In this document: one piece after another, positions 3,158-32,766 of the stretch | How positions within the stretch are numbered: position 1 is the first letter of the stretch | How the letters are laid out: each line of letters begins with the position of its first letter | DNA from: Chara braunii | Lineage: Eukaryota > Plantae > Charophyceae | Length of the DNA: 64,000 nucleotides | Direction: 5' to 3' | Assembly: GCA_003427395.1 (NCBI GenBank) | Contig: BFEA01000001.1 | Coordinates: forward strand, 12,823,012-12,887,011 | Position numbers and translations under genes: made by a program | Notes under the pieces: model-generated | What the model saw: only the letters and a program-made list of their open reading frames with translations | Told to the model about the DNA's origin: nothing | Database searches by the model: none

Positions 3158-3269
3158 CTGCGGTAGAATGGAGAAAAAGGAAACAAACAAGCCGCTTGGT
3201 CGAGGATCAGACCAGAGGAATGACGTCAACGCAAAGCGCTTCCACTTCTTTCGCTTCGCCTGTGCTCAC
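3158..3269 (-). other. Probable short intron upstream of the HD-ZIP start codon (5' UTR intron)
   Basis: AAG|GTGAGC donor at 3269; polypyrimidine tract ttgtttgtttcctttttctccattctaccgcAG acceptor ending at 3158. Confidence 0.55.
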
Positions 3270-11729: not shown

Positions 11730-11742
11730 TGGTATCGGAGCC
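11730..11742 (+). promoter_or_regulatory. Primer binding site, initiator tRNA-Met type
   Basis: TGGTATCGGAGCC versus canonical TGGTATCAGAGCC; 141 nt upstream of the gag ATG. Confidence 0.85.
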
Positions 11743-11883
11743 CGACACGTGGCCAGGGTCTTAGGATTGATAGCACGTTAATTAGGTTACCTGGCTAACC
11801 GTGGGCGACCTCGCCCCCGGACCACGCATAGACGCAACCCTATTGTCACCCGAAGCAGATCGACTAATCGACGAGCAGCCAAT

Positions 11884-14800
11884 ATGGCTGCCAACGCGCA
11901 GAACCCGGTTCCGCAACAAATTGCTTACCCACCAAATCAACCTGCCCCACGTGCACGAGCTCCCATGACGCCACCTGATCTCTATTTGTTTGATCCCGCA
12001 CACCATCTCGCAGGAGCATGGCTGGCCACACTTAGAGCCCAACAGTACACTGACAACGAAGCACAGATCAACATTCCGGCTCGAATGGGAGGAGACACTC
12101 ATCATTGGTTTAGTACCTATGTATGGGTGGATCTCACGACCTTCGAGCGGGACTTTATGAACCGATTTGATTATGTCCACCCGGAGCAAGCGCTGTACAT
12201 GATCAAGGACCGAGTGCAAAAACCGCTTGAATCCGTCGCGGAATATCGAAATCGGTTCTACAGAATGTTCGTAAAAACTGAGCGAGGTGAGCAAGTAGGG
12301 AGAGATATGTTCATTGACGGACTCCGCAGCCGGACAGTAAGGGCTCAGTTGTGAAAGCAGTTTTCCCCCATCAACCATACGCTACAACAAATTATAGCCG
12401 CTGCGGAAGAAATGGAACGGAAGTTCGTGGCGAACTTCCTGGAAGGAGAAGATTACCCTAGAGACGGAGATTCGACCGAGCTCGCTCGAGCAAGAGCAGA
12501 GCTGGCCGCTTTACAGAACAAATTTGAAAACATGGGGTTTGTATCAGGACCTGTCACCTATATGGAACAGATAGGCCCCAAACGAGTAATCCTAAGAGAG
12601 ACTCCGAGCATCTCTGCTCATATGATGCCCCCCCCCGTCAGGTCATTACCCTCGCCGCCGGTTGAGGCTCCTGTAGGATCAAACGAATCAGCGGCCATTT
12701 TCGAACTAACCAAAACTTTGATCAGTTTGATCCAAGAAAGTAAAAAGGAGCAGCGAGAGCACAATGCTCGGCTGGAAGCCATGACGAGGAACATGCGACC
12801 CATTGCGGTGCGTGCCCCTCCGATGCAGCAAGGATTAGCCCCAGCCCCTGCTCTCGGGGGAGCTGCGAACAATCTCAATATCTGCTACGCCTGTCATCAG
12901 CCCGGACATCTAGCCCACGATTGCCCCCACCGACCCCCACAACAGCGGATCGGGGTCGCACCTATGGCTGCGGCCCCCATCGCCAACGGACCTGGACGAG
13001 TCGGAGCTTTGATGGAAGAAATAGAGGGTGGGGGAAGTGCCCTGGCTACCTCGGAAGAGGCCGCCGAACTAATCCCGCTAGATCAGTATGCATCACTGGG
13101 ATATCATGGGCTTGGAATGATCGGAACAATCAGACCAGCACCATAACCAAAAGAGGTGGCAGAGTGGCGACCGTCCCTAGGAGAAATGGAGTCGGGAGGA
13201 CCCACCTTCGTCATAGGGGAGATCGATGTATTAAACATCATCCGAGCTTTGGACCATTGGATTCCCCTTCCGATTGGTCATCTGCTCTCGATCTCCGAGC
13301 AAGCCAACGAGCGAATGTTGCAGCATTGCAAAGCGAACCGAAAGCGATTCACCCTTGGCCGAACCCCGAACGTGAAAGCCAAAAGCCCCGCGCCCGAAGA
13401 AAACCCCGCAAGTACTTCGGATCCGATATGGGTAGGTTTAATCCGGAAAGATGATCATTTCCTGCGGATTAAACCAATTCTGTGAAAATCCGCCAAGTAT
13501 GATATAGAAATTTGGGGAATTCCTTACAATGCTATTATAGATTCAGGAGCAACTGTGTTGGCTATCTCACTGAGAGTGGTCGAAAGGGCAGGTAGGAAAA
13601 ACGACTTGATCACGCTTTTTTAAAAAGATCAGCTCGTTTCGGCTGACGAAGAAAGAATTAAAACTCTAGGAAGAATGACCAATGTCGCTTTTCGATTGGG
13701 TAAAGTGCATGCGCTTGGGGATGTCGTAGTACTAGATGTCAATACGTACGACGTTCTTTTCGGACTTCCCGCTCTTGTGGCGTTACGAGCAAACCTGGAC
13801 TTCGAACGACGATCAATCGTCCTCCGAAATACAGGAGGAAAACCCTACGCTGTGCCTATGCGATTGACCCTTCGCACTACTATTAACGTGGTTCCACGGG
13901 TTTCGCCGATGATGGCAGGGACTCTCCGCATGATCTCCTGGGAGAAATCCGCAGAAGGAGAGTCATCAACAGATGATGCGGAAAGCAGTGACGAGGATGA
14001 TCCAGAGATCTTGAAATTAGCACGACAACGTGTTTGTTACCCGCCACCCAAAACGATAGCGAGAACGATGCAACTAACCAGCCGAAAAATCCAAAGGACC
14101 AAGGCGATGATCTTGGGTGAGCCCCTCGTGCAGATTTCGAGGATGGTCGATTCTTTGGAACCCCCTCAAACTCTGTATGAAGGAATCGCCCTTCTCCTCG
14201 CCCGGTACAGCGACAAGAAGCATTACTGTGACATTACGGATCTACCCAAGTCCTTACTAACCTCGGCTAAAGAAGTGAGATTGTTACGCTTGGGGGCGGA
14301 AGCAAGCTCTCTGGACCCCCCTGGGCGTTTTGAAGCGGAAACCGACGGACAAGGGATAAAGATCGCAACTAAGGAAGTGCCGTGGCAGGATGTTTGTGAT
14401 GGGATTACCCCGGAAGGACACGTGGCAATCCGAGAAGAAGATGCTCAGATGATGGCCACAGTGTTCTCCTGGCGATCGGATCATTTATTCATCTTGGCGC
14501 CTCCACCCAACTTGACAAAACAGGCGAACACGAAACAGATTGACGTTCGGAGTTGGGACCAAAAGCCAGCGGTTGGATTGAACCCGCTTCTGGACCCTGG
14601 TCCTTTCCCGTAGTGTTAGTACCGAAGAAGAACGGAGTGATTCGCATTTGCATTGATTATCGCAAGCTGAATGAAATCACGAGATCTGTATCCCCTCCCC
14701 CGGATTGATGATCTGGTGGATGCGATTGGATGCGCTAAATATTTCAGCAAGTTTGATATTCGGCATAGCTTCCATCATATTCTGGTAAGGGAAGAAGACC

Positions 14801-15897
14801 GACCGAAAACGTCCTTTGTGTTGTTTGAGGGCACGTGGCAGTGGGTTCGGTGTCCGATGGGGATTTGCAATGCGCCTGCCACGTTTCAGCGAGCGATGAA
14901 CATGATGTTTCAGAACTTCGTTAGCAAGACACGGCTGACGCAAGGAATGATTAACTTTTGCGTGATCGTGTACATGGACGACATCCTGGTCTATTCGGAA
15001 ACCTATCACGGGCACGCGCAACACATCGAATGGACATTGGGTGCATTGAGAGACGCAAGGTTCAAGATTGCGCTTGAGAAGAGCGAATTTTTCCTCTCGG
15101 AAATTTCGTTCTTGGGCTATGTCGTGACACGTAGAGGATTGCGGCCAGATTCGAGAAAAGTTGCGGCGGTGAAGGAAGCTCCGGTTCCTACGTCACTTAC
15201 GCAGGTTCGAGCCTTCTTGGGACTGGCGTCATACTATCGGCGCTTCATCAAGGGCTCTGCCGCGATTGCATGACCACTAACGAATCTGCTACGGAAGGAC
15301 CAGCCTCTTAGCTGGGACGGGGAGTGCCAGCAGGCCTTTGCAACCCTCAAGGACGCTCTGGCAACGGCCCCTATTTTGATTCCACCGGACCCCTCGAAGC
15401 AGTTTATTCTCATCACGGACTGGCAACCGGAAGCTATTTCCACTATTCTAGCGCAAAAGGGGAACGATGGTCGCGAACACGTCATCGAGTATGCATCACG
15501 AACCGTACCGGACGAACGAAGAAACGACTCCGCACCTCAGGGTGAGTGATATACGGTAGTTTGGGGAATCCAACACTTCCATCCGTATCTCTACGGACAT
15601 AAGTTTCGCCTCGTAACGGATCACGAGCCTCTGCTGGCGTTGAAGAAACTCACCAACTACACGGGCATGATTGGCCGCTGGGCGGTGCGACTACAAGAAT
15701 ACGACTTCGATATCGTCCATCGAAAGACAGAGCGACAAGGCAACGCGGACGGGCTGACACGTCTGCATTGACCTGCCAAGGTACCAAAGGGCGAGGAAAT
15801 TACACCGTGGAAAGAGTCGGACCTGACTAACGAGCCGAAGTACTGACAAGTGGCAGTTCTCCCACGTGGCAAGAAGCAAAACGGTGGCGATGGGTGA
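11884..15897 (+). pseudogene. Element A gag-protease-RT-RNase H polyprotein (disrupted; no integrase in this frame)
   Basis: CCHC knuckle CYACHQPGHLAHDC; protease IIDSGA; RT LPRIDDL, CPMGICNAPATFQ and YMDD; RNase H LITDWQ, LVTDHEPL and NADGLT. ORFs at 11884, 12412, 13156 and 13675 share one frame broken by point stops. Deletion near 14560 relative to copy B. Confidence 0.92.
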
Positions 15898-17620
15898 TGG
15901 AGGTAACCCCACTACCCCTCTTTCTCCCCCTTCCTCCTCGTCTCTCCCCTCCCTGGCTAACAAATTTTGCTATTTTTGCGAAGCCATCTCCCTCGTCTAT
16001 TCGGTCTCCATACGTCCTAACGAGGTGGGATATGCGGATTGGATAGATTGCTAACAGTGTGTTGCCCGGCCCCACAGCTCGTGCATCCACTACAGGAACG
16101 ATAGTAAACCATGGTTGTGCCCCTTGTGCTGGACCGACAAAATTCTGACCGAGGCTCGCTTTTTGGATGCCACGTCAGAAGCATTGGAAAAGACCAGAAA
16201 GTTTAGAAGGGCCGAAGTGTGGACGAATATTGCCTTAATTGCCATCCTAGTAGGTAACCCCCTCCAGGATTTCACCAAGGAAGATCAGAGGAGGGCCAAC
16301 GAAAGGGCTCGGGACTATCGATGGGTAGAAGGTAGATTAGAAAAATGGAAAACGGACGGCAGTGGGATTTGGATGGTAGTGCCGCATCCGTTCATGCGGT
16401 ATGACTGCGTTAAGACAACCCACGAGGAAACTGCGGCTCATTTTGCTGTACGAATCACGGAGTCCGCTATCGACAAAAATGAGTGGTACTGGTCCAATAT
16501 CCGTGACGATGTGAAGTACATCGTCGCCACCTGTCAAGTCCGTGCCGCTGATAAAGCGTCGATTCAGCCGCCAAGGTCGATAGTGCCCACGGTTGTTGAA
16601 CAGCCATTTCAAAGAGTAAGCATGGACACTACCGACATAGCGGTGCCCCCCGGCCCTAATAGTTGCGAATATTCAGTCCTATTGGTATTTGTCGACCATT
16701 TCTCGAAATGGATCGAAGCATATCCTTGTGGCACGCAGCAAGCCACGAAAATAGCACGATATGTCAACCGTTTCCTCGGAATGCATCAGGATACGGAAGA
16801 AATCCTGACCGACAACGGGGCTGAATTTAGGGGAGAAGTGTTAAGGAATCTGGTCCTACATGGCGTCGCCATACGGAACAAACACTGCACCCCACATGTC
16901 ACAATCCAATGGGCTGGTCGAAAACGCTAACCGGATGATAAAGACAGCATTGCGACGAAACATTGAGGCACGGGATCCGAGACCTTGGCCCGATATCGTC
17001 GATCACATCCTGGCGGTCCATCGTGGAATGCCCACAAATCGACAGGGCTGAACCCCTTCCAATTAAGGACCAATAGTGTCGCTTGTGTTTCGATACCAAA
17101 CCTCCCGGATGAGTCTACATTGAACCGACGACCCACCAGGGTCACAACTCGGGACAAGGCCAAACGACACCTAGAGTTAATGGAACGGTCGCTGCCCAGG
17201 CTAGCCCGAAAGCGACAGAAAATGACCAAACTAGCCCAGGGCCGACAGGTCCGGAGCTACGAGGCTCGAAATGGGAATGTGGGTCCACAGCCCCAGTACA
17301 AATTGGGGGACGTAGTGCAGGTGAGGAAATGTGCTTGCCAGGGTAGGCTAGCGCCACGATTCTTCGGGCGATACCGCGTGATTGAGCTCGACCCCAACAG
17401 CGTGGACACTGTGCGTCTCGCCCCTGAAGTCTCTGGCAGCCGATCGGCGCGCCCGATCACCCGCCACATGTCCTATCTTCGCCTCCTCCCCTCTGCTCCG
17501 TCCCCTTCTCCCTCGATCTCTCATTCCGAGGAAGCCGAAGACAACGGCTCTAACTCTCCTCCATCTCCCTTTTCATCTTGCTCCCTCCCTGTTTCCCCGT
17601 CACCTTCGCCATCGCCATGA
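15890..17620 (+). pseudogene. Element A separate integrase ORF with N-terminal PHD finger
   Basis: CYFC...WIDC(Q)QC....H..C...WLCPLC (C4HC3); HHCC HEETAAH...CQV(C); DDE SMDTTD / LTDNGAEF / SNGLVE; GPY/F-like PRFFGRYRVIE. One stop (16052) and one frameshift (~16878). Confidence 0.9.
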
Positions 17621-18093
17621 ACTTTCTGGAGGAGAAAGCCCTCAGCAAAGCATCGCTTGCGCCTCGTGATCAGTTGACGATCCGGCAAGTCCATCATCCC
17701 CGCCTCAGTCCAGATCTTCGGCGGTTTGCGCACTTCTTCTGCACGGAAGGCGTGTATGCAGCAGCGGTGTTCAGAATTGAAGGCCATCCTGACGCGGTGG
17801 TACTGGCCGAGGCAGTAGCAGTTCATCAACGGGCGTTGCCAGGTGTCAGTCGCATATCGGTCGTCATCAACTTCAGTGGCGATCTCTCCACACTTCTTCC
17901 TTTGCGACATTCGACGGTGAAGGCGTCGCTGCGCATGTGGGCGAACGATCTGGTCGCCGAGTGGACTCAGCTGCTGGCTCGCCCCGAGGATACAATCGCG
18001 ACATCACGAGCAATCGAATACGACGACCTTCAGATGTACCAGCACGATCCGCCGGCAGAGCTCCCTGTCCTCGTACCCTTCCCCCATCCCTAA
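17617..18093 (+). CDS. Element A accessory ORF3 (158 aa, unknown function)
   Basis: ATGA overlap with the integrase stop; MNFLEEKAL...VPFPHP; homologue in copy B (27212-26755). Confidence 0.7.
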   Translation: MNFLEEKALSKASLAPRDQLTIRQVHHPRLSPDLRRFAHFFCTEGVYAAAVFRIEGHPDAVVLAEAVAVHQRALPGVSRISVVINFSGDLSTLLPLRHSTVKASLRMWANDLVAEWTQLLARPEDTIATSRAIEYDDLQMYQHDPPAELPVLVPFPHP

Positions 18094-19205
18094 TGAGTCT
18101 CTCTGCGATCTCCGTTTTCGATCTCCCCTCCACCTTCCCCACCTTCTGACAATCCGATATCCATCCTCGCCTTTCCTACTGTCTAAAGCCCCTTGCTGTC
18201 CCCGATATCCATCCTCCCCATTGGGTCCTGTGGCGCGAAGACTTCATCAAGCGTTCATTGTGCTTGGTTGAGGTACGACTGACGTGGATCGAGGACGAAG
18301 CGCACCCGCCTTGCATAGTAGAGCGCCTAAAGTTGCTGTTCATCCAGGCCTGGCGAACCAACGTGGAGGGAGAGCTCCTCGCATTTCTATTCGGTACAGT
18401 GCGGCCCGGTCATCAGAAACTCATCACGCAAGAGCTCACGATCCCGGTAGCGCAGCTGGCGGACGATCTCCCCCTCGACATCATCTCGCAAGACGATGAG
18501 CATCCAATTCCCCATGTACTTTATTGCGCATTGACGCCCTATCTTCAGTGGTCGGCTTGTGTAGAGGGAGCCGCAGAGCGCATCCCGCCGTCGCAGCAAC
18601 AATATCTCGATCCCCGGACGGCTCGCGATCCTGCCTTCTTCAGGCATCCTACGGCGGAGCAGCTTGCGGCCATTCGAGAAGAAGAGGAGGAGGAAGAGAG
18701 TACCGGGAGTGACGAAGACGACGACGGACTGGAAGAAGGCGGGAACAGCGACGAAGAGCTCGGGGAAGAAGACAAAACCCCCGAAGAAGGAAGCTATAGC
18801 GAGCATAGCGAGGGCAAATAGAGCAAAGAAGGAGAAGAAAGTGAGGAAGGAGAAGAGGAGCACGACGAAGAGCCTGCTGGATCGGAGTGGGAAGCCGTGC
18901 CAGAAGAAGTGCTTCGTACGGGTACGGAGGCTGAGGATCCCGAGGCGGCCCTCAAAAGAGAAGAGATCGCGGCCGGGAAGGAGTTTGAATTCGCAAGCGT
19001 GACGAGTTTGCGCACCCACGACGACCCAAGCCGCCATCCGGAGCCGCCCCGGCCTGAAGATGGCGACCTCACAGCCACGACTCCGACCCCATCAGCGAGG
19101 CGACGGAGCCGATCCCCCTCCTCCTCAACCAGTCCCCCAGTTCACCGACGTACCGATACGGGCGATCGGCCTTCGTCCCCGATCACTCTCTCGTCGTCCC
19201 CTTGA
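18093..19205 (+). pseudogene. Element A accessory ORF4 (~370 aa: globular N-half, long acidic tract, RS/P-rich tail)
   Basis: TAATG overlap; segments at 18093, 18258 and 18897 are in one frame with two point stops; homologue in B (26758-25651). Confidence 0.7.
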
Positions 19206-19391
19206 CTACCTCACCCTCCGCCAGCTCACCACTCCCATTACGTTCCCCTCCAATCCGTTTCCCCATGACACCTTCCGCCACTTCTACCCTGCTCGCCTAC
19301 ATTGGTGCATCCCCACCCCTCCATTCGATGCGCCGTCCCAGCCTTCTGCCTCCATGTCTTGCTCCTTAGTGCCGCGTGGCGAGGTCACAAC

Positions 19392-19679
19392 ATGATCGAG
19401 GTTTATTGCGTGATAACGGGGACCATCCCCGCATGCGAAGATCGCGATCGTTTCCATGCGGCACTTTTCCGGACTCTCACCACCCTCTATCCTGATTATC
19501 TCGCATCCCTCCCTCGCACCGGCAATCACTTCCCCCGCTTTCATCGCATCGTTCGTTACCAAGAGCTTCCGGAGACTGTAGCCGGAATGGAAAACCTTCT
19601 GCCCCCCGTACCCATAAACCCTCCACCCCGCCATGCTGCCATGCACCGACTCCCTTTTCCCCTCCTGATTAATTACTGA
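19392..19679 (+). CDS. Element A accessory ORF (95 aa, MIEVYCVITG...)
   Basis: ATGA start overlap and TGATG end overlap; conserved in B from 25460. Confidence 0.55.
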   Translation: MIEVYCVITGTIPACEDRDRFHAALFRTLTTLYPDYLASLPRTGNHFPRFHRIVRYQELPETVAGMENLLPPVPINPPPRHAAMHRLPFPLLINY

Positions 19680-19984
19680 TGCAACCGGTAATGGACGCGT
19701 GTCACGGCGACGGCACGAGAAAGATCCCGTCCTTGGGTCGTCGAGAGCCCAATCTGAGGAATTTGTAGAAGAGCGGTGATGCCACGTTGGATGATGTTCA
19801 CACGCAATCAAACAGTAAGTGGCATAGAAAAAAGTGCTCCTCGTATCGATCAAGTAGAAAAATCGACACGTGTCAACAAGCAAGCAGGAGCTTGCTAATA
19901 TTGGAACCCCCTGGGCGTCACATATGTGACGAACCACTTTCTGTAACGCGCAATTTTCTGCGCGGTTGCAATGAGGGGTCCTAA
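19679..19984 (+). pseudogene. Element A accessory ORF (MQPVMDAC...) reading across the internal junction into the 3' LTR
   Basis: TGATG overlap; open for 134 aa in copy B (25173-24769). Confidence 0.4.
19912..19931 (+). other. Internal end-to-end (att-like) junction tgggcgtcaca-ta-tgtgacg containing a perfect 16-bp palindrome
   Basis: CGTCACATATGTGACG at 19916-19931; identical in B at 24921-24936. Confidence 0.92.
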
Positions 19985-22261
19985 GCTGTGAAGATTGGGC
20001 CAATTACGGGAGATCGGGATCGGAGGAAAATTGCATAAGTATCCTCGCTTTTTCGTCCTTTTTCATCGTTTCTTTTTCGAATGGCCAAGCACGGGGTCGG
20101 GTGTGTCTTGGGACAACCGGTGGAGTGATTGGTCAGATGGATGTCTGGCGCGCCACCACGCGCGCGATTAATAAAGGTTGACGTCGTTTCTTTCGGTTTG
20201 ATTTCAATCTTTTGGGCGTGGACATCGCGCGGGAAATTGCTTCGTTCTTTTTGAAATTCCTTTTTAATCTTTCTCGAATTTTGTCGAGCCCCCGATGGGT
20301 CTCGGAATTTCGGACTTTCCTTCTGGAATTTGTGCTTTTTGTTTTTTCGCATCAGATAGGAATTTAGGAAGTCAGTAATTAGGATTTTTCCTGCCGCGCG
20401 GCGCCTTTTGTCTACGCGATTCTTCACGCGGCTGCAACGGTACTCCGTGTGTGTAACTATAATTTTGGGTGGGCGCCATTGTAGCTGTATCTTTCTTCTT
20501 GCACTTCGTCTCTCTCGCCCTTCCTCTCTTTCTTTTGCTGAAATTTTGTAAGCCGCGGTTTGCATGCTCGGATCGATGCGTGGAGAAGTGTTACGTCCCC
20601 CACGCCGCGGCCGATCATGTAGAACGCAGGCGTTCCCTCTCTAATCCTCACTCTAAGTCCTAGTAATTCCGTGTTCTTCGTGCATGCATGCACACTATAA
20701 ATTTCGGCTGCGCGATTAGTCAGCTCTCTTAACCCGTTGTTGGAAGCTCGGGGTTGCGCGATCAGGAAGCGTCGGCACACGAGAGAAGTAAGAGGTGAGT
20801 AGAGCAGGAGTTGGGCGACACGACAGGCTGGTGCCGAGCGCACGGGATTGACGTGGGCCACGACGGACTGTGGGCACGGGCGAATCTGACGGGTGCGGGA
20901 GGACTAAGCGGGGTGACAACTTTGTGGGTTGGTGCGTGACGACGAATTGTCCGCATCGGAGAGAAAGAGAGAGAGGAGAGAGTTGAGGTCGATGGACGCA
21001 AATTTGCTGTTTTATTGTCTCTTCCCCCTCTTCATCTGTGTACATACATTTTGATTGCGGCTCCGGGCGGTTTGCCCGTTCTTATTTTCATTTCGGCTTT
21101 CTGAAATCTAGCCTTGGCTTTTTGCTCACATTTGTCCTTGCGATGTCCGTCCTGCTTGCATTATGTGTATGATTGCCGAATGTATGGATGTATGGATGTT
21201 ATGACTGCTTGTCTATCTTTTTGCTGAGAATCCCTGTCCTTGCGTTATGTCTGTGTCGAATCTTCGCCGCACCTGATGTCGCTGTAGATGGGATAAGAAT
21301 CCCGCCCCGATAGTGATTTTGTTCTCGTTTTCGCTTATCCCGCGATGGGGGTTGCGATATGATTGCATCTTGCATAATCGACGATCCGAAGTCTGGTCCC
21401 GCGAACGCCGCGCAAGAACATGTGTAAACGCGATCCGAGTCGCGCCCTTACACGCATTCCCGTGCGTCCATTCGCTCACCCAAAAAGGAATCGCGGCGGA
21501 ACCATCATCCCGTACGAGCACGCTGAGGCGCCACTGAGTCTGCCTGTCCTACACGTGCTCGTGCGTGGTGACGATATCCCAACCTGCGCTATCCCATGGA
21601 CGATGATACCATGACCCGATCTTGGGGCTCAGACTCGTCCTATGACCCGGACTATTTCACCCCTATAATAAACGAGCTCATAAGGACACGATACCCCTGT
21701 CACACGGAGAATTGGCTATGTCCGCGGAAATTCCACTGCGCCACCTCTAGCGACCCTCTGTGCTCCGATTTCCCTTCTCCCGACCACAACTACTACTTCA
21801 CCCACCCGGGATTCGTTGAGATCACCACCAGTTTCCCTCCTTTCCGCCTCCTTCTCCCGTATCATCAACTCAGTGTCGTTCCGTGGCCGGCCATAGCCCC
21901 CTATTGGCCCAATACGTTTTGCGTGAACTGTCGACGCAGCGGCGCACAGAGAACCACGGAATTCCAAAGGCCCAACCCAGGTACGAGGCGCCTTGCGCCA
22001 CGTGGCGGCCCCCGACGGCCTAACTTTTCAGGACCATCTCCAGCATGGAGGAATTTTTCCGTAACCCGTCGCCCACAGTGTCCCAGCCCCTTCGGACTGT
22101 GAGACCCTTGTGCGCGCCCCCCCTCGTTCGCCTAATTGCATTCATACCCTTAAGACTCCCCCACTTCCCCCAAAAATCCTTGGCACACCCCTTTTCGCAC
22201 TTCCAGGCCCACACTCCACTCCGATCAGGAAGTCACGCTGGGCGTGAGGTTGGGCGTCACA
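19925..22261 (+). repeat. Element A 3' LTR including the terminal tgggcgtcaca
   Basis: direct repeat of 9418-11729 plus 11 extra terminal bases. Confidence 0.92.
21611..22102 (+). CDS. LTR-encoded ORF (~163 aa, MTRSWGSDSSYDP...), unknown function
   Basis: open in the A 3' LTR; protein-level similarity to 45910-45362 in diverged copy C; ATGA overlap with the preceding LTR ORF ending at 21614. Confidence 0.65.
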   Translation: MTRSWGSDSSYDPDYFTPIINELIRTRYPCHTENWLCPRKFHCATSSDPLCSDFPSPDHNYYFTHPGFVEITTSFPPFRLLLPYHQLSVVPWPAIAPYWPNTFCVNCRRSGAQRTTEFQRPNPGTRRLAPRGGPRRPNFSGPSPAWRNFSVTRRPQCPSPFGL

Positions 22262-24768
22262 TCGCTACCCCATCTCTTCATCAACTCCCCTGCTCGGCAC
22301 AACGTCACCCGATACGTCAAGTCCGCCACCTCATCTCAACACCATCCCCTCCATACTATTTACCTTTTCGATCGTGTAAGCCTACCTCTCCCACGATCTC
22401 CAAATGTAACCATCTCTACGCCCACGTAGGAGCCGCTGCAACTCGTCACTTCACTTGCCACTGCAGCATAGCATCCTATCTCTAGAAATCGTGAAAACAG
22501 GTTCGAGAGGCCTCATCGGCGCACTGCGCTCTCGAAGGGGGCGCTCTCCGCTGTGTCGGAAAAGACCTGCGTTTTTCGAGAGTGCACTGTGGCGGTGCTG
22601 TGACGCCCAACCTCACGCCTGGCGCAACTTCCTGATCGGAGTGGGGTATGGGCTTGGAAGTGCGGAAAGGGGTGTGCCAAGGATTTTTGGGAAAGTGGGG
22701 GAGTCTTGAGGGTATGAATGCAATTAGGCGAATAGGGGGTGCGTGCGCGAGGGACTCAAGGTCAGATGGGGCTGGGGCACTGTGGGCGACGGTTGACGGG
22801 GAAATCCCTCCGCGGTGGAGGCGGTTCTGAAAAGTTGGGCCGTCGGGGCCCGCCACGTGGCGCAGGCCGCCGCGCGCTTGGATTGGGCCTTCGGAATTCC
22901 GAAGTTCTCTGTTCGCCGCGACGTCGGCAATTCACGCAAAATGTACCGGGCAATAGGGGGCTATGGCCGGCCACGGGACGACGCTGAGTTGATGATACCG
23001 GAGAAGAAGGCGGAAAGGAGGGAAACTGGTGGTTATCTCAACAAATTCCGGGTGGGTGAAGTAGTAGGTGTGGTCGGGAGAAGGGAAATCGGAGCATCGA
23101 GGGTCGCTAGAGGTGGCACAGTGGAATTCCCGCGGACATAGCCGATTCTCCGTGTGACAGGGGTATCGTGTCCTTATGAGCTCGTTTATTATAGGGGTGA
23201 AATAGTTCGGGTCATAGGACGAGTCTGAGCTTCAAGATCGCGTCATGGTATCATCGTCCATGGGATAGCGCAGGTCGGGATATCGTCACCGCGCACGAGC
23301 ACGTGTAGGACAGGCAGACTCAGTGGCGCCTCAGCGTGCTCGTACGGGATGATGGTTCCGCCGTGATTCCTTTTTGGGTGAGTGAATCGACGCACGGGAA
23401 TGCGTGTAAGGGCACACGCGGCGTTCGCGAGACCAGACTTCGGATCGTCGATTATGCAAGATGCAATCATATCGCAACCCCCATCGCGGGATAAGCAAAA
23501 AATGAGAACAAAATTACTATCGGGGCCAGATTCTTATCCCATCTACAGCGACATCAGGTGCAGGCAAAGATTCGACACAGACATAACGCAAGGACGCGGA
23601 TTCTCAACAAAAAGATAGACAAGCAGTCATAACATCCATACATCCATACATTCGGCAATCATACACATAATGCAAGCAGTACAGACATCGCAAGGACAAA
23701 TGTGAGCAAAAACCCAAGCCCAGATTTCCGAAAGCCGAAACGAAAATAAGAACGGGCAAACCGCCCGGACCCGCAATCAAAATGTATGTACACAGATGAA
23801 GAGGGGGAAGAGACAATAAAACAACAAATTCGCGTCCATCGACCTCAACTGTTTCCTCTCTCTCTTTCTCTGCGATGCGGACAGTCCGTCGTCACGCACC
23901 AACCCACGAAGTTGTCACCCCGCTTAGTCCTCCCGCACCCGTCGGATTCGCCCGTGCCCACAGTCTGTCGTGGCCCACGTCAATCCCGTGCGTTCGGCAC
24001 CAGCCCGTCGGGTCGCCCAACTCCTGCTCTACTCACTTCTTACTTCGCTCGTGTGCCGACCCTTCCTGATCGCGCAACCCCGAGCTTCCAACAACGGGTT
24101 AAGAGAGCTGACTAATCGCGCAGCCGAAATTTATAGCGTGCATGCATGCGAGAAGAACACGGAATTACTAGGACTTAGAGTGAGGATCAGAGAGGGAACG
24201 TCTGCGTTCTGCATGAGCGGCCGCGGCGTGGGNGACGTAACCCTTCTCCACGCATCGATCCGAGCATGCAAGTCGCGACTTACAAAAATTTCAGCGAAAG
24301 AAAGAGAGGGAGGGCGGGAGAGACGAAGTGCAAGAAGAAAGATACAGTTACAATGGCGCCTGCCCAAAATTACAGTTACACACACGATTTAAGGGCGCCC
24401 GCTAATCAGAGTACCGTTGCAGCCTCGTGAAGAATCGCGTAGACAAAAGGCGCCGCGCGGCAGGAAAAATCCTAATTACTGACTTCCTAAATTCCTATCT
24501 GATGCGAAAAAACAAAAAGCACAAATTCCAGGAGGAAAGTTCGAAATTCCGAGAGCCCTTGGGGGCTTGACAAAATTCGAAAAGATTCAAAAGGAAATAC
24601 AAAAGGAACGAAGCAATTTCCCACGCGATGTCCGCGCCCAAAAGATCGAAACCGAACCGAAAGAAACGTCGTCAACATTTATTAATCGCGCGCGTGGTGG
24701 TGCGCCAGACATCCATCCGACCAATCAATCAATCGGCCGTCCCAGGACACACCCAACTCTGAACCCAG

Positions 24769-27212
24769 TCATCCGGCAAGGGGCGACGAAAAAGACGAAG
24801 AAAAAAAGGGTACTGATGCAATTTTCCACCGATCCCAATTTCCCGTAATTGGTCCAATCTTCCCAGCTTCGGACCCCTCGTTGCAACTGTGCAGAAAATC
24901 GCACGTTACAGAAAGTGGTTCGTCACATATGTGACGCCCAGGGGGTTCCAATATTAGCAAGCTCCTGCTTGCTTGTTGATACGTGTCGATTTCTCTAATC
25001 GATCGACACGCGGAGCACTTCTCTTTATGCCACTTACCGTTCGATTGTGTGTGGACGTCATCCAACGTGACAACACTGCTCTTCTGCAAGTTCCTCAGAC
25101 TGGGCTCTCGACGATCCAAGGATGGGGTCTTTCTTGTGCCGTCGCCATGACAAGCGTCCATTACCGGTTGCATCAGTAATTAATCAGGAGGGGGAAAGGG
25201 AGTCGCTACATGGCGGCATGGTGGGGCGGAGGGTTTATGGGTAGCAAGGGCAAGAGCCTTTCCATTCCACCTACAGTCTCCGAAAGTTCTTGGTAGCGAA
25301 AGATGTGGTGAAAGCGGGGGAAGCGGTTGCCAGTGCGAGGGAGGGACGCGAGATAATCGGGATAGAGGGTGGTAAGAGTCCGGAAGAGTGCCACACGGAA
25401 ACGATCGCGATCTTCGCATGCGGGGATGGTCCCCGTTATCACGCAGTAGACCTCGATCATATTGTGGCCTCGCCACGCGGCACTAAAGAGCAAGACATAG
25501 AGGCAGAAGGCTGGGACGACGCATCGAATGGAGGGGTGGGGATGTACCACTATAGCGAGGCGAGCAACGTAGAAGTGGTGGAAGGTGTCACGGGGAAACG
25601 GATTGGAGGGGAACGTGATGGGGGTGGTGAGCTGGCGGAGGGTGAGGTAGTCAAGGGGACGGCGAGAGAGTAATCGGGGACGAAGGCCGATCGCCCGTAT
25701 CGGTACGTCGGCAAACTAGGGGACGGGTTGGGGAGGAGGGGGATCGGCTCCGTCGCCGCGCTGATGGGGTCGGAGTCGTGGCCTCGAGGTCGCCAACTTC
25801 AGGCCGGGGCGGCTCCGGATCTCGGTTCGGGTCGTTGGGAATCTGCAGGCTCGCCCCGCTTGCGAGCTCTAACTCTTTCCCGTCCACGATCTCTTCTCTT
25901 TTGCGGGCCGCCTCGAGATCCTTTGCTTCTGTACCCGTACGCAACGCTTCTTCTAGCACGGCTTCCCACTCTGATCCAGCAGGCTCTTCGTCGTGCTCCT
26001 CTTCTTCTTCCTCGTCCTCTTCTTCTTCTTCGCTCTGTTCCCCCTCGCTATGCTCGCTATAGCTTCCTTCTTCGGGGCTTTCGTCTTCTTCCCCGAGCTC
26101 TTCGTCGCTATCCCCGCGTTCTCCAGCCCGTCTTCATCTTCATCACTCCCGGTACTGTCTTCCTCCTCCTCTTCTTCTTGAATGGCCGCAAACTGCTCCG
26201 TCGTAGGATGCTTGAAGAAGGCAGGATCGCGAATCGTCCGGGGATTCAAATATTGTTGCTGCGACGGCGGGATGCGCTCTGCAGCTCCATCTACACAAGC
26301 CGACCATTGAAGATAAGGTGTCAATGTGCGAGAAAGTACATGGGGAATTGGATGCTCGTCGTCTTGCGAGATGATGTCGAGAGGGAGATCGTCAGCCAGC
26401 TCCGCCACCGGGATCGCGAGCTCTCGCGTGATGAGTTTCTGATGACCGGGCCTCACTGTACCGAATAGGAATGCGAGGAGCTCTCCCTCCACGTTGGTTC
26501 GCCAGGCCTGGATGAACAGCAACTCAGGCGCTCTATGCAAGGTGGGTGCGCTTCGTCTTCGATCCACGTCAGCCGTACCTCAACCAAGCACAGTGAAAGC
26601 TCGATGAAGACTTCACGCCACAGGACCCAATGGGGAGGATGGATATCGGGGACAGCAAGGGGCTTTAGACAGTAGGAAAGGCGAGGATGGATATCGGACT
26701 GCCAGAAGGTGGGGAAGGTGGAGGGAAGATCAAAAGCGGAGATCGGGGAGAGACTCATTGGGGACGTGGGAAGGGAACGAGGACAGGGAGATCTGTCGGC
26801 GTCTTACGCTGATACATCAGCAGGCCGTCGAATTCGATCGCTTGTGTCGATGCGAGAAGATGGGTCCACTCGGCGACCAGGTCATTTGCCCACGCGCGCA
26901 ACGATGCCTTCACTGCTGAATGCCGTAGGGGAAGGAGCGTGGAGAGATCGCCCCGGAAGTTGATGACGACCGATATACGGCTGACCCCTGGCACTGCTCG
27001 CTGATGGACTGCTACTGCTTCGGCCAGTACCACCGCGTCAGGCCGACCTTCGATTCTGAACACCGTCGCTGCGTACACGCCTTCTGTGCAGAAGAAGTGC
27101 ACAAGCCGCCGATGATCTGGACTGAGGCAGGGATGATAGACCTGCCGGATCGTCAATCGATCACGGGGCGCAAGCGCTGCTTCGCTGAGGACCCTTCCTC
27201 CAGAAAACTCAT
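24769..27212 (-). pseudogene. Element B accessory ORF chain (homologues of A 17617-19984)
   Basis: ORFs 27212-26755, 26758-25651, 25460-~25173 and 25173-24769 with ATGA/TGATG overlaps. Confidence 0.7.
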
Positions 27213-28908
27213 GGCGATGGCGACAGTGACGGGGAGGCAGAGAGGGAGCAAGAGGAAGAGGGAGACGGCGGAGAGTCAGAGCCGTCGTTGTCGGCTTCCT
27301 CAAAAAGAAAGATCGAGGGAGAAGGATACGGATCAGAGGGGAGGAGGCGAAGATAGGACACGTGGCGTGTGATCGGGCGAGCCGATCGACTGCCAGAGAC
27401 TTCAAGGGCGAGACGCACGGTGTGCACGCCGTTGGGGCCGAGCTCGATCACACGATATCGCCCGAAGAATCGTGGTGCTACCTTACCATGGCGAGCACAT
27501 TTCCTCACCTGCACCACGTCCCCCAATTTGTACTGGGGCCGCGGACCCGCATTCCCATTTCGGGCCTAGTAGCTCCGGACCTGTCGGCCTTGGGCTAGTT
27601 CGGTCATTTTCTGTCGTTTTCGGGCTAGCCTGGGCAGTGACCGTTCCATTAGCTCTAGGTGTCGTTTGGCCTTGTCCGTAGCCGTGGCCCTGGTGGGCCG
27701 TCGGTTCAATGTAGACTCATCTAGGAGGCTTGGTATCGAAACGCAAGCGATGCTATTGGTCCTTAATTGGAAGGGGCTTAACCCCGTCGATTCGTGGGGC
27801 GTTCCGTGGACCGCCAGAATGTGATCGACGATATCGGGCCAGGGCCTCGGATCCCGTGCCGCGATGTTTCGTCGCAATGCTGTTTTTATTACCCGGTTAG
27901 CATTTTCGACCAGCCCATTGGATTGTGACATGTGGGGTGCAGTGTTCCGTATGGCGATGCCATGTATGACCAGATTCTTTAACACTGCTCCCCTTAATTC
28001 AGCCCCGTTGTCGGTTAGGATCTCTTCCGTATCCTGATGCATCCCGAGGAAACGGTTGACATATCGCGCGATCTCCGTGGCTTGCCGCGTGCGACAAGGA
28101 TCCGCTTCGATCCATTTCGAGAAATGGTCGACAAATACCAATAAGACTGAATACTCGCAACTATTAGGGCCAGGGGGCACCACTACATCGGTAGTGTCCA
28201 TGCTCACTCTTTGAAATGGCCGTTCAACAACCGTGGGCACTATCGATCTCGGTGGCTGAATCGACGCTTTATCAGCGGCGCAGACTTGACAGTTGGTGAC
28301 AATGTATTTCACATTGTCACGGATATTGGACCAATACCACTCATTTTTGTCGATGGCTGACTCCGTGATTCGTACGGCAAAATGGGCCGCATTTTCCTCG
28401 TGGGCTGTCTTAACCCAGTCATACCGCATGAACGAATGCGGTACCACCATCCAAATCCCACTGCTGTCCGTTTTCCGTTTTTTTAATTTACCTTCTATCC
28501 ACCGATAATCCCCAGCCCTTTCGTTGGCCCTCCTCCGATCTTCCTTGGTGAAATCCTGGAGGGAGGCAATATCAGTCCATACTTTAACCCCTCTAAACTT
28601 CCGGGTCTTTTCCAACCCTTATGACGTGGCATCCAAGAAGCGAGCCTCGGTGGAATCTTGTCGGTCCGGCACAAGGGGCACAACCACGGTTTTCTATCGT
28701 TCCTGTATTGGATGCACGAGCCATGAGCTCGCGCGACACACTGTTGGCAATCTATCCAATCCGCATACCCTTCCCCGTTAGGGCGCATGGAAACCGAATA
28801 TACGCGGGAGATAGCTTCGCAAAAATAGCAAAATTTGTCAGGCAGGGAGAGGAGAGACGAAGAGGAAGGGGGAGAGAGAGGGGTAGTGGGGTTACCTCCA
28901 TCACCCAT
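27209..28908 (-). pseudogene. Element B PHD-integrase ORF
   Basis: intact PHD CYFC...WIDCQQCVARAHGSC...WLCPLC; HEENAAH...CQVC; DDE motifs; frameshift near 28630. Confidence 0.9.
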
Positions 28909-31900
28909 CGCCACCGTTTTGCTTCTTGCCACNTGGAAGAACCGCCACTTGTCCGTATTTCGGCTCGTTGGTCAAGTCTGGCTCTTTCCATGGTGTAATT
29001 TCCTCGCTCTTTGGTACCTTGGCAGGTCGATGCAGACGTGTGCGTCCGTCCGCATTGTCGTGTCGATCTGTCTTTTGATGGACGATATCGAAGTCGTACT
29101 CTTGCAGTCGCACCGCCCAACGGCCAATCATGCCCGTGTAGGTGGTGAGCTTTTTCAATGCTAGCAGAGGCTCGTGATTCGTCACGAGGCGAAACTTCTG
29201 TCCGTAGAGATACGGATGGAAGTGTTGGATTCCCCAGACTACCGCATAACACTCGCCTTGAGGTGCGGAGTCGTTTCGGCGTTCATCTGGCACTGTGCGT
29301 GACGCGTACTTGATGACGTGTTCGCGACCATCGTTCCTCTTCTGCGCTAGAATAGCGGAAATAGCTTCCGGTTGCCAGTCTGTGATGAGAATGTACTGCT
29401 TTGAGGGGTCCGACCGAATCAAAATAGGGTTCGTCGCCAGAGCGTCTTTGAGGGTTGCAAAGGCCTGCTGGCACTCCGCGTCCCAGCTGAGAGGCTGGTC
29501 CTTTCTTAGCAGATTCGTTAATGGTCGTGCAATCGCGGCAAAACCCTTGATGAAGCGCCGGTAGTACGACGCCAACCCCAAGAAGGCTCGAACCTGCGTC
29601 TGTGACGTGGGAACCGGGGCTTCCTTCACCGCCGCAACTTTTCTCGAGACCAGCCGCAATCCTCCACGTGACGTATCCCAATAACGAAATTTCCGAGAGC
29701 AAAAATTCGCTCTTCTCGAGCGCAATCTTGAACCCAGCGTCTCGCAACGCGCCCAATGTCCATTCGATATGCTGCGCGTGCCCGTGATAGGTTTCCGAGT
29801 AGACCAGGATATCGTCCATATACACGATCACGCAGANGTTGATCATCCCTTGCGTCAGCCGTGTCTTGTTGACGAAATTCTGGAACGTCATGTTCATTGC
29901 TCGCTGAAACGTGGCAGGCGCATTGCAAATCCCCATCGGACACCGAACCCACTGCCACGTGCCCTCAAATAGTACAAAGGTCGTCTTTGGCCGAATATCG
30001 AACTTGCTGAAATAATTAGCGCATCCAATAGTATCCAATAAATCATCAATCTAGGGGAGGGGATACACATCTTTGATAGTGATTTCATTCAGCTTGCGAT
30101 AATCAATGCAAATGCGAATCGCTCCATTTTTCTTTGGCACTAACACTACGGGAAATGACCAAGGTCCGGTAGCGGGTTCAATCCAGCCACTGGCTTCGAA
30201 CTCTCGAATTCGTTCGAGAGCCTTTTTGCGTTCAATCAAGGAATACCGATAAGGTTTGCAATGAATCGGGGAGTGATTTCTTGTCTGAATTTCATGTTGG
30301 ATTACTAACGACAACCCAATGTTAGTGTCTGATACACTAATCGCTCCTTGATATTCTGTTAGAATATCCGCAATTACCCGATGGATTTCATCCGGCACGT
30401 ACTGTGGGACGTGCAGTTCGAAAAGTTGGTCCCAGAACCGAACGTCAATCTGTTTCGTGCTCGCCTGTTTTGCCAAGTCGGGTGGAGGTGCCGAGATGAA
30501 TGAATGGTTCGATCGCCAGGAGAACACCGTGCCCATCATCTGGGCATCTTCTTCCCGGATGGCCACGTGTCCTTCCGGGGTAATCCCGTCACAAACATCC
30601 CGCCATGGCACTTTCTTGGTTGCGATCTTTATCCTCAGTCCGTCTGTTTCTGCTTCGAAACGCCCAGGGGGTTCCAGAGAGCTTGCTTCCGCCCCCAAGC
30701 GTAACAACCTCACTTCTTTAGCCGATGTTAACAAGGACTGGGGTAGATCCGTAATGTCACAATAATGCTTCTTGTCGCTATACCGGGCGAGGAGAGGGGT
30801 GATTCCTTCGTACAGAGTTTGAGGGGGTTCCAAAGAATCGACCATCCTCGAAATCTGTACGAGGGGCTCACCCAAGATCATTGCCTTGGTTCTTTGAATT
30901 TTTCGGCTTGTCAGTTGCATCGTTCTCGCTATTGTTCTAGGCGACGGGTAATGAACGCGTTGTCGTAACAACTCCAAGATCTCGGATCATATTCGTCACT
31001 GCTTTCCACATCATTTGACGATTTTTCCTTTGCGGATTCATCCCAGGAGATCATGCGGAGAGTCCTCGCCATCATCGGCGAAACCCGCGGAACCGCGTTT
31101 ATAGTAGTGCGAAAGGTCAATCGCATGGCCACAGCGTAGGGCTTTCTTCCTGTATTTCGGAGGACGATCGATCGTTGTTTGAAGTCCAGGTTTGCTCGCA
31201 ACGCCACAAGGGCGGGAAGTCCGAAAAGAACGTCGTACGTGTTGACATCTAGTATTACGACATCCCCAAGCGTGTGCACTTTACCCAATCGAAAAGCGAC
31301 ATTGGTCATTCTTCCCACGGTTTTAATCCTTTCTTCGTCAGCCGGAACGAGCTGATCTTTCTTAGAAAGCATGATCAGGTCGTTCTTTCTTTCTGCCCTT
31401 TCGACCACTCTCAGTGAAATAGCCAACACAGTTGCTCCTGAATCTATAATCGCATTGTAAGGAATTCCCCAGATTTCTATAGATTTCCACGGAATTGGTT
31501 TAATTCGTAGGAAGTGATCATCTTTCTGGATTAAACCGACCCGTATCAGATCCGAAGTACCTACTGGACTTTCTTCGGGCTCGGCGGCCTCTTCCGTGGT
31601 GGCCAGGGCACACTTCCCCCACCCTCTACTTCTTCCATTAAAGCTCCGACTCGTCCAGGTCCGTTGGAGATGGGAGCCGCAGCCATAGGTGCGACCCCGA
31701 TCCGCTGTTGTGGGGGTCGGTGGGGGCAATCACGGGCTAGATGTCCTGGCTGATGACAGACATAACAGACATTCAGATTATTTGCAACTCCTCCGAGCGC
31801 AGGTGCCGGGGCTAATCCTTGCTGCATTAGAGGGGCGCGTACCGCAATGGGCTGCATGTTCCTCATCATGGCCTCCAGCCGAGCATTGTGCTCTCGCTGT

Positions 31901-32766
31901 TCTTTTTTGCTTTCCTGGATTAAACTTAGCAATGTTTTGGTTAGTTCAAAAATGGCCGCCGATTCGTTCGATCGTACAGGAGCCTCAACCGGCGGCGGGG
32001 GTAATGCCCTGACGGGCGGGGGTATCATAGGAGCAGAGATGTTCGGAGTCTCGCTTAGGATTACTCGTTTGGGGCCTATCTGTTCCATATAGGTGACAGG
32101 TCCTGATACAAACCCCATGTTTTCAAATTTGTTCTGCAAGGCAGCCAGCTCCGCTCTCGCTCGTGCGAGCTCGAGCGAATCTCCGTCTCTAGGGTAGTCT
32201 TCTCCTTCCAGAAAGTTCGCCGCGAACTTCCTTTCCATTTCTTCCGCAGCAGCCATAATCTGTTGTAGCGTATGAGTGATGGGGGAAAATTGCTTACGCA
32301 ACTTAGCCCTTATTGTCCGGCTGCGGAGTCCGTCAATGAACAGATCTCTCCCTACTTGCTCCCCTTGCTGAGTTTTTACGAACATTCTGTAGAACCGATT
32401 TCGATATTCTGCAACGGATTCGAGAGGTTTTTGCACTCGGTCCTTGATCATGTACAGTGCTTGCTCAGGGTGAACATAATCGAATCGGTTCATAAAGTCC
32501 CGCTCGAAGGTCGGGAGATCCACCCATACATAGGTACTAAACCAATGATGAGCGTCTCCTCCCATTCGAGCCGGAATGTTGATCTGTGCTTCGTTGTCAG
32601 TGTACTGTTGGGCTCTAAGTGTGGCCAGCCATGCTCCTGCGAGATGGTGTGCGGGATCGAACAAATAGAGATCAGGTGGCGTCAAGGGAGCTCGTGCACG
32701 TGGGGCAGGTTGATTTTGTGGGTTAGCATTTTGTTGCGGAACCGGGTTCTGCACATTGGCAGCCAT
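28901..32766 (-). pseudogene. Element B gag-protease-RT-RNase H polyprotein (disrupted)
   Basis: [37 protein letters not shown] and RNase H motifs; ends GGDG*. Confidence 0.92.

What the first reader, a model, noticed from the sequence alone, without database searches (positions are those of the whole stretch)
19912..22261. LTR retroelement with circularly permuted ends: a built-in circle-junction palindrome suggests integration from a circular intermediate
Seen in the sequence: the integrated element ends TGTGACG...gtgaggt-TGGGCGTCACA with a 4-bp TSD (tcgc). The 5' LTR stops at gtgaggt and goes directly into the PBS (11730), with no CA end. The missing 11 bases are instead found internally, just before the 3' LTR, as TGGGCGTCACA-TA-TGTGACG (19912-19931), a perfect 16-bp palindrome joining the right and left ends with a 2-bp spacer. 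Copy B has the same arrangement (24921-24940; PBS 32908-32920), and diverged copy C has the same right end, so this is a family trait. Established knowledge: canonical LTR reverse transcription gives two identical TG...CA LTRs and cannot add bases beyond U5 that are absent from the 5' LTR. Inference: a cDNA starting at tgggcgtcacata and ending at gtgaggt(tgg), if circularised (possibly through the shared TGG copied from the tRNA CCA) and then cut by the DDE integrase at CA^TA^TG, gives exactly the observed provirus. That would parallel the abutted-end circle junctions used by IS3-family transposases rather than the linear retroviral pathway. I do not know of a described LTR family with this layout, but I could not search.
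Basis: partly seen in the sequence, partly recalled or inferred. Interest (0 to 1): 0.93.

Follow-up and report, generated by a model that had tools for sequence, protein, structure and literature searches.

The report
Gypsy retrotransposons integrating through joined ends
A high-copy Ty3/gypsy retrotransposon of the alga Chara braunii keeps its right-hand insertion end inside the element, next to the left-hand end, a layout also found here in moss-like and Chlamydomonas elements, so its DNA copy likely has to join its two ends, probably into a circle, before the integrase would cut and insert it, unlike the textbook linear route.

Summary
Observation confirmed. Copy A (9418-22261) is a Ty3/gypsy element (gag-PR-RT-RH-PHD-like-DDE integrase) with a 4-bp TSD verified by two empty sites. 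Its 5' LTR runs into the PBS without a CA end; the missing 8-11 bp (X) lie before the 3' LTR as X-TA-TG and again at the right end: A1-internal-B1-NN-A2-B2. Public Chara reads show this across 140-176 right-end contigs per run. The same layout occurs in a distant moss-like family (B 114 bp, directly after a clear PPT, spacer GC, 4-bp TSD) and in 14 of 22 classifiable split entries of the Chlamydomonas repeat library, including Gypsy-7a, active in laboratory strains. Two figure legends noted the asymmetry (KnitGypsy-Dnmt3; Gypsy-7a); my searches found no paper on the CA-NN-TG junction or a mechanism. Inference: standard reverse transcription yields LTRs of form B-NN-A, the cDNA ends are joined, and integrase cuts the internal palindrome. 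Single-LTR insertions with TSDs in the moss-like family fit 1-LTR circles but have other explanations. No circle was observed, the predicted tandem form was absent (0 of 15), and common ancestry with the moss-like clade is not shown. TGG microhomology is not required.

The parts
9414..9417 (+). left copy of 4-bp TSD (TCGC) of copy A
   Evidence: empty sites at 8925-8965 and 43100-43140
9418..11729 (+). copy A 5' repeat A1 (2312 bp), starts TGTGACG, ends GTGAGGT, no CA end
11730..11741 (+). primer-binding site TGGTATCGGAGC abutting A1 (tRNA-iMet type; label recalled, not tested)
11782..13146 (+). gag with CCHC zinc knuckle, broken by a stop
13147..16054 (+). protease, RT, RNase H and a C4HC3 PHD-like finger, in pieces (protease hit and finger pattern seen in copy B ORFs 30929-31729 and 28495-28971)
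   Evidence: finger by pattern inspection, Pfam only weak (E 0.0048)
16055..17620 (+). DDE integrase (H2C2, rve), frameshifted in A; D,D35E in one frame in B (27566-28618 minus)
17554..19679 (+). extra 3' ORFs without Pfam match, shared with many Chara gene models
19879..19896 (+). 7-bp-stem hairpin with AGGA loop upstream of X; stem letters differ yet pair in other subfamilies; no purine tract abuts X
19912..19922 (+). B1 = X, internal copy of the right integrase end (TGGGCGTCACA)
19923..19924 (+). 2-bp spacer TA at the centre of the 16-bp palindrome 19916-19931
19925..22250 (+). copy A 3' repeat A2 (2326 bp, 95.3% to A1)
22251..22261 (+). B2 = X at the right end, ending CA
22262..22265 (+). 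right copy of TSD (TCGC)
22599..34750 (-). copy B, same layout (B2 22599-22609, A2 22610-24927, spacer, B1 24930-24940, PBS from 32920, A1 32921-34750 truncated by a LINE)
45153..45770 (-). copy C, diverged right-end fragment; last ~40 bp nearly identical to A and B

Best explanation
This is a Ty3/gypsy retrotransposon whose two integrase ends lie head to head inside its LTR unit as a CA-NN-TG palindrome, so its cDNA is likely joined end to end into a circle that the DDE integrase would cut at that palindrome and insert with a 4-bp duplication. Shown: the integrated layout A1-PBS-internal-B1-NN-A2-B2, the DDE integrase, the 4-bp TSD, the PPT directly before B1 in the moss-like and Chlamydomonas relatives. 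Inferred from established retroviral reverse transcription: the linear cDNA is [B-NN-A]-internal-[B-NN-A], whose termini are not att sites. Inferred: its right end (A) is joined to its left end (B), by host end-joining or by an RT jump with 0-3 shared bases; integrase cuts 3' of CA on both strands, drops the 2-nt spacer, and inserts a circularly permuted copy. Inferred: when B is short (6-11 bp: Chara, several Chlamydomonas families) only the joined junction has a full right att site, so the internal junction is locked; when B is long (114 bp, moss-like family) 1-LTR circles are cut too, giving single-LTR insertions.
For: Layout exact in A and B and family-wide. Right-terminal ~40 bp conserved even in diverged copy C, as expected if att extends beyond X. 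Moss-like family (integrase 25-33% identical): PPT directly before B1; B after A2 followed by host flank in 18 of 18; A followed by PBS (17) or by B (16); 4 of 4 testable two-LTR copies have a perfect 4-bp TSD; single-LTR copies A1-internal-PPT-B1 at 20 of 34 right-flank groups, 4 of 7 testable with perfect 4-bp TSD, which is the product expected from a 1-LTR circle cut at the junction. At 2 of 15 A2|B2 joints there are extra bases ending like the PPT (+1 in L002, +19 in L047), as if the joint is made afresh with the cDNA's left end. Same layout in further families L013, L001, L010. Chlamydomonas library: internal entry ends X+GC with X equal to the LTR's right end in 14 of 22 classifiable split entries; whole-element entry Gypsy-4_cInc has PBS directly after A1, X-GC-TG inside and X at the right end. 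Biochemical precedent: foamy virus integrase cuts the 2-LTR junction palindrome after CA on both strands (PMC1180852, passages); HIV-1 2-LTR circles can feed integration (PMC4372172, abstract and outline).
Against: No joined junction or circle was seen: no such loose end among the 20 best-supported rows (142 rows hidden; contigs drop rare forms) and no such joint among those shown. In the moss-like family a free 2-LTR circle has two equal junctions, yet the tandem product A-B-NN-A-internal-B was found at 0 of 15 intact left ends. Single-LTR copies can also arise by B1 x B2 recombination or assembly collapse; L002 (double) and L003 (single) share 2.7 kb at 99.4% and part just after B1; singles are not significantly older or younger than doubles (p 0.11-0.17). 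13 of 15 joints are precise, which fits an RT jump as well as ligation. Chara has no purine tract next to X, so its plus-strand start is unknown. Common origin of the Chara family and the PHD clade is unproven: RT-RH 89/93, not starred; the integrase tree does not join them.
Confidence: 0.6

Rival explanations
1. Third strand jump without a closed circle: RT at the end of plus-strand synthesis jumps to the start of B and copies it onto the right end; integrase then trims the right end and cuts the left junction internally on a linear cDNA.
For: Joints are mostly precise (13 of 15); first PBS base(s) match the base(s) before B in Chara (TGG) and the moss-like family (A); explains 0 of 15 tandem products; Chara lacks a PPT next to X.
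Against: No shared base in Gypsy-4_cInc; G>C at 19914 in about a quarter of depth; still needs an internal cut by integrase; does not by itself give single-LTR copies.
Confidence: 0.22
2. Cut first, join later: integrase cuts the left junction of the linear cDNA, inserts both CA ends while holding the B fragment, and host repair seals A2 to B afterwards (or anneals B1 with B, giving single-LTR copies).
For: Gives both two-LTR and single-LTR products with the same 4-bp TSD; filler at 2 of 15 joints.
Against: With B of 6-11 bp the released fragment is too short to be a plausible separate att substrate (inference); most joints are precise; right-end conservation extends about 40 bp into A.
Confidence: 0.09
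3. PAT/Ngaro-like route: the RNA runs to B2 or is primed otherwise than at the PBS, so B2 is templated by the transcript and the internal junction guides a DIRS-type circularisation.
For: Repeat order is that of split-direct-repeat elements (PMC7192593 passages; PMC5890265 legend); two whole-element C. incerta entries have their A-end string only once.
Against: A conserved tRNA-type PBS abuts A1 in Chara and Chlamydomonas; a PPT abuts B1 in relatives; no tyrosine recombinase hit in 19 ORFs of A and B; TSDs are made.
Confidence: 0.06
4. Ordinary LTR element with a local rearrangement or assembly error.
For: Copies are old and broken; only one window copy has both ends.
Against: Same layout in A, B, 140-176 right-end contigs per run, three or more metagenome families and many Chlamydomonas families.
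Confidence: 0.02

Closest known systems
Gypsy-7a_cRei and related Chlamydomonas Gypsy families (PMC9940879, Fig. 6A legend and Dataset S15)
   Same: Gypsy domain order with PHD between RH and INT; left LTR lacks the last 8 bp of the right LTR; internal part ends X+GC before TG; tRNA-type PBS abuts the 5' LTR
   Different: Paper notes only the missing 8 bp in the passages I saw; no internal junction or mechanism stated. Spacer GC, not TA; PPT next to X. Not placed in my trees.
KnitGypsy-Dnmt3 of Klebsormidium nitens (PMC5890265, Fig. 4c legend)
   Same: Gypsy domains with a DIRS-type repeat order (A-coding-B-A-B)
   Different: Carries Dnmt3; legend gives no CA-NN-TG junction, TSD or mechanism; the Chara element shows no DNMT hit. 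Its sequence was not examined here.
PAT-like, Ngaro, VIPER, TOC1 split-direct-repeat elements; DIRS-1 internal circle junction (PMC7192593)
   Same: A1...B1-A2-B2 order; an internal copy of the joined ends; proposed circular intermediate
   Different: Those use a tyrosine recombinase; this has a DDE integrase, protease, PBS, TG...CA ends and a 4-bp TSD
Retroviral 2-LTR circle junction cleavage (foamy virus PMC1180852; HIV-1 PMC4372172; Panganiban and Temin 1984, seen only as a cited reference)
   Same: Palindromic CA-NN-TG junction cut by DDE integrase after CA on both strands
   Different: There circles are a side route and LTRs are identical; here the junction is encoded in the element and the provirus is permuted, so some internal cut looks obligatory
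Canonical plant Ty3/gypsy lineages (REXdb, PMC6317226), incl. Phygy and Selgy
   Same: Domain order; Phygy and Selgy have 4-bp TSDs, Phygy prefers NCGN, like TCGC here
   Different: Defined by identical LTRs with TG/CA ends, PPT next to the 3' LTR; Phygy uses mainly tRNA-Trp. Relationship untested.
IS3-family circle junctions (recalled)
   Same: Abutted ends with a short spacer in a circle are the integration substrate
   Different: DNA transposons without RT; junction is not stored in the element

Membership tests
Ty3/gypsy LTR retrotransposon | gag-PR-RT-RH-INT order | tested here: met
Ty3/gypsy LTR retrotransposon | DDE integrase with H2C2 finger | tested here: met
   rve and Integrase_H2C2 hits; D,D35E in copy B
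Ty3/gypsy LTR retrotransposon | TG...CA element ends and 4-6 bp TSD | tested here: met
   4-bp TCGC with two empty sites
Ty3/gypsy LTR retrotransposon (canonical) | two co-terminal LTRs, 5' LTR ending CA before the PBS | tested here: not met
   A1 lacks X in A and B and in reads
Ty3/gypsy LTR retrotransposon (canonical) | PPT directly before the 3' LTR's TG | tested here: not met
   X-TA lies there; 7 of 15 purines before X; relatives have PPT before B instead
DIRS order (PAT/Ngaro/VIPER) | split direct repeats A1...B1-A2-B2 | tested here: met
DIRS order (PAT/Ngaro/VIPER) | tyrosine recombinase, no DDE integrase | tested here: not met
   no YR hit in 19 ORFs of A and B; rve present
PHD-bearing green-lineage gypsy clade (moss-like loci, Klebsormidium, Tetrabaena proteins) | one clade with the Chara family | tested here: inconclusive
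   RT-RH 89/91 and 89/93, not starred; integrase tree separates them
REXdb Phygy / Selgy / Chlamyvir | RT-RH-INT phylogenetic placement with reference elements | not testable with these tools
   no named reference sequences available
Circle-junction integration pathway | extrachromosomal joined junction cut by integrase | not testable with these tools
   reads show none among listed rows; needs experiments

The most novel reading that the evidence does not exclude
A widespread, ancient group of green-plant Ty3/gypsy elements (chlorophytes, Klebsormidium, Chara, bryophytes) integrates obligately from end-joined DNA circles: the att sites are encoded inside the LTR as a ready-made circle junction, the DDE integrase acts as a junction-cutting endonuclease, 1-LTR circles are productive when B is long, and shortening B to 6-11 bp is a lock that restricts cutting to the correctly joined molecule. 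This would be the natural realisation of the abandoned circle-precursor model of retroviral integration and a DDE counterpart of split-direct-repeat YR elements, testable at once in Chlamydomonas Gypsy-7a.
Probability: 0.4. Interest if true: 0.95.

Novelty: new variant of a known kind. Interest (0 to 1): 0.86.

Why it matters
LTR retroelements and retroviruses are taught to integrate only linear cDNA trimmed at its ends, with circles as dead ends. Here the genome layout itself forces an internal cut and an end-to-end join, whichever rival is right. It bears on the old question whether circle junctions can be integration precursors, links Gypsy to DIRS-type repeat layouts, and predicts that LTR-finding tools and LTR-based dating mis-draw or miss a large repeat family in Chara, bryophytes and green algae (single-LTR insertions would be invisible). 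One member, Gypsy-7a_cRei, is transposing in laboratory Chlamydomonas (86 new copies in CC-4532, PMC9940879), so the mechanism can be tested directly. An integrase that cuts and inserts circles could also be of use as a tool.

Tried and rejected
No whole genome was held, so copies could not be counted genome-wide. Pattern scans for the right end in metagenome contigs and for the junction in viral contigs found 0; integrase scan of viral contigs 0. No RNA holder listed as such; raw RNA reads gave no transcript start or end: both strands covered about equally in X19 and many reads ran into host flanks. Search for a joined junction or single-LTR ends in Chara reads: none among the rows shown, most rows hidden, so not evidence of absence. 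Atlas search of a 3' extra ORF: best score 0.86, a lead only. An 8-bp TSD reading (CACATCGC) was rejected because B, C and 140-176 contigs fix the end at CA. A tyrosine-recombinase element was rejected. TGG microhomology as a general requirement was rejected. Age difference between single and double moss-like copies: not significant, two rows misaligned by insertions. The A-end anchor was loose (243 of 276 hits unrelated; middle of the output cut). First trees had only 2-6 outgroups, and one search had mixed rows (L045, L072); with 25 outgroups the quick tree left the Chara family unplaced. Literature searches covered only open-licence PMC and bioRxiv text; Repbase reports, theses and subscription papers were not searchable and may describe the layout.

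Full report
Observation. Copy A starts at 9418 with TGTGACG, after TCGC. Its first repeat (2312 bp) ends GTGAGGT at 11729 and is followed directly by TGGTATCGGAGC. At 19912-19922 lies TGGGCGTCACA (X), then TA, then the second repeat (19925-22250, 95.3% identical to the first), then X again (22251-22261) and TCGC. The host sequence is itself a repeat, and two empty copies carry TCGC once, so the TSD is 4 bp. Copy B on the minus strand has the same junction, right end and PBS; its 5' repeat is cut by an L1-type LINE. Copy C is a diverged right-end fragment whose last ~40 bp match A and B. The 20-mer occurs exactly twice against 0.01 expected. Because X and the PBS both begin TGG, the part missing from the 5' repeat is 8 to 11 bp.

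Identity. Pfam gives gag, CCHC, protease, RT, RNase H, H2C2 and rve in Ty3/gypsy order, and no tyrosine recombinase in the 19 ORFs of A and B scanned. Copy B's integrase has D,D35E in one frame, and a C4HC3 PHD-like pattern lies between RH and INT (by inspection). 23 of 24 integrase hits and all 120 listed RT-RH hits are Chara braunii gene models, so the window is from Chara braunii or a very close relative and the family is large.

Family trait. Contigs of two DNA runs laid on 19760-22330 break off behind 22261 into mixed flanks (140 and 176 contigs), behind 22253 into the PBS (55 contigs in X1; 23 raw reads in X19), and before 19925 into mixed flanks (63 and 81) (1409 loose-end rows hidden). 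Other subfamilies join at 19896-19900 and keep the junction; about a quarter of the depth at 19914 reads C. A hairpin with an AGGA loop just upstream keeps pairing although its stem letters differ between subfamilies. No purine tract abuts X in Chara. No loose end for an end-to-end joint or for single-LTR ends was among the 20 rows shown (142 hidden).

Distant relatives. An integrase alignment found 80 metagenome loci at 25-33% identity; 65 form one family whose integrase is 79-85% identical to Sphagnum fallax, Calypogeia and Riccia proteins, with more distant hits in Klebsormidium, Closterium and Tetrabaena, many with PHD and some with a cytosine methylase. This family has A of about 339 bp and B of 114 bp, a clear PPT directly before B1, and the junction CA-GC-TG. 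B after A2 runs into host flank in 18 of 18 cases; A runs into the PBS (17) or B (16). Of 34 right-flank groups 14 are two-LTR and 20 single-LTR (A1-internal-PPT-B1); 4 loci lacked a readable B end and were dropped, and L024 ends at its contig end. TSDs are 4 bp: perfect in 4 of 4 two-LTR and 4 of 7 single-LTR copies (two more match 3 of 4, one 2 of 4). Eight sites seen in two contigs kept their form, but L002 and L003 share 2.7 kb at 99.4% and differ in form, so assembly error may explain some singles. None of 15 intact left ends is preceded by B. 13 of 15 A2|B2 joints are precise; two carry extra bases ending like the PPT. L013, L001 and L010 are further families with PPT-B-CA-NN-TG; L004 has the PPT and a diverging 3' end I could not class; the L014 group showed no such junction.

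Literature. [quoted passage not shown] In its repeat library I saw only passages around headers and motifs, from a file cut when stored. Of 22 split LTR/internal entries whose two ends I could read, 14 (Gypsy-2a, 2b, 3, 6, 7a-c, 8a, 8b, 9a, 9b, 10b, 11, N2a) have an internal part ending in X plus GC with X (6 to about 51 bp) equal to the LTR's right end, and 8 (1, 4, 12, 13, 15, 16, N1a, N1b) are canonical. These LTR entries include X, so lack of X in the 5' LTR is shown only by the 7a legend and by the whole-element entry Gypsy-4_cInc, where the PBS follows A1, the junction is internal and the right end adds 7 bp with no shared base. PMC5890265 (passages) says KnitGypsy-Dnmt3 has the repeat structure of a DIRS element with Gypsy domains. 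PMC7192593 (passages) describes split direct repeats and the DIRS circle-junction model. PMC1180852 (passages) shows foamy integrase cutting the 2-LTR palindrome after CA on both strands; PMC4372172 (abstract, outline) argues HIV-1 2-LTR circles can feed integration. PMC6317226 (passages and one table) gives canonical criteria and 4-bp TSDs for Phygy and Selgy. PMC8557442 (passages) was not relevant. Ten searches found no paper on the junction or mechanism; only open-licence text was searched.

Mechanism. With the PBS after A1 and the PPT before B1, textbook reverse transcription gives [B-NN-A]-internal-[B-NN-A] (inference from established knowledge). Its left TG lies 8-116 bp inside the molecule and its right end has no CA. 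The integrated form therefore needs an internal cut at NN-TG and a transfer of B to the right end. One end-to-end join followed by one staggered cut at the palindrome does both and removes the spacer: best model, 0.6. It also explains why single-LTR copies are common where B is long enough to hold a whole att site and not evident in Chara. The absent tandem form is unexplained unless integrase works on the terminal junction in cis or tandem repeats collapse. An RT jump that copies B onto a linear end (0.22), cutting before joining (0.09) and a PAT-like route (0.06) remain open.

Phylogeny. RT-RH trees put the Chara family beside the PHD clade at 89/91 (6 outgroups) and 89/93 (25 unnamed outgroups), not starred; a quick tree left it unplaced and the integrase tree, with a long Chara branch, did not join them. 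One origin is possible, not shown; Chlamydomonas elements were not in the trees.

Earlier notes of this scan report the same layout in two probably moss windows; they are unchecked AI notes and not counted as evidence. Three other look-ups were empty.

Verdict. Real, family-wide and widespread in green plants; the asymmetry was noticed twice in figure legends, the built-in junction and its mechanistic consequence apparently not. New variant of a known kind; interest 0.86.

Noticed in passing
window 34750-42200, minus strand: L1/Tx1-type LINE (APE, RT, zf-RVT) abutting and truncating the 5' LTR of copy B; copy A sits in a tandem repeat like this LINE's upstream region (8899-9417, 22262-22478 vs 42694-43166).
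   Followed up: partly
window 19879-19896: Hairpin with AGGA loop 15 bp upstream of X whose stem covaries across subfamilies; may replace the missing PPT as plus-strand priming or jump signal.
   Followed up: partly
window 11744-11751 and 19866-19873: GACACGTG, holding the palindrome CACGTG, occurs just after the PBS and again about 40 bp before X; possible RNA end pairing or dimer signal.
   Followed up: no
loose-end consensus: Flank consensus ends in GCGGCGC before the left end and starts ACGC/GCGC after the right end: likely preference for GC/CpG-rich targets, like NCGN of Phygy.
   Followed up: no
window 22251 (run X4): 55 contigs carry an extra T between the LTR end and X: a subfamily with a one-base longer joint.
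   Followed up: no
L055 1679-2030 and related loci: The moss-like family has no tRNA-type PBS; the bases after A1 are complementary to position ~167-180 of A (8-14 nt exact in 4 of 8 copies), suggesting Tf1-like self-priming.
   Followed up: partly
L005 2502-2975; P0175, P0181, P0212 and others: Cytosine-methylase-like segment before RT in the PHD clade (PF00145 in P0181; no Pfam hit for the L005 piece), so DNMT-bearing Gypsy may extend beyond Klebsormidium.
   Followed up: partly
PMC9940879 Dataset S15: Gypsy-5a's internal entry starts with GC plus a partial LTR start, and Gypsy-14a holds two different junctions; Gypsy-1_cInc and -3_cInc show their A-end string once: other permutations may exist.
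   Followed up: no
window 17554-19679: Extra ORFs after the integrase, found in many Chara gene models, with no Pfam family and only weak Atlas hits.
   Followed up: partly
window 2258-3265, minus strand: Homeodomain plus leucine-zipper (HD-ZIP-like) ORF.
   Followed up: no
window 50242-51128 and 62535-62874: Tandem arrays with units of about 119 bp and 37 bp.
   Followed up: no
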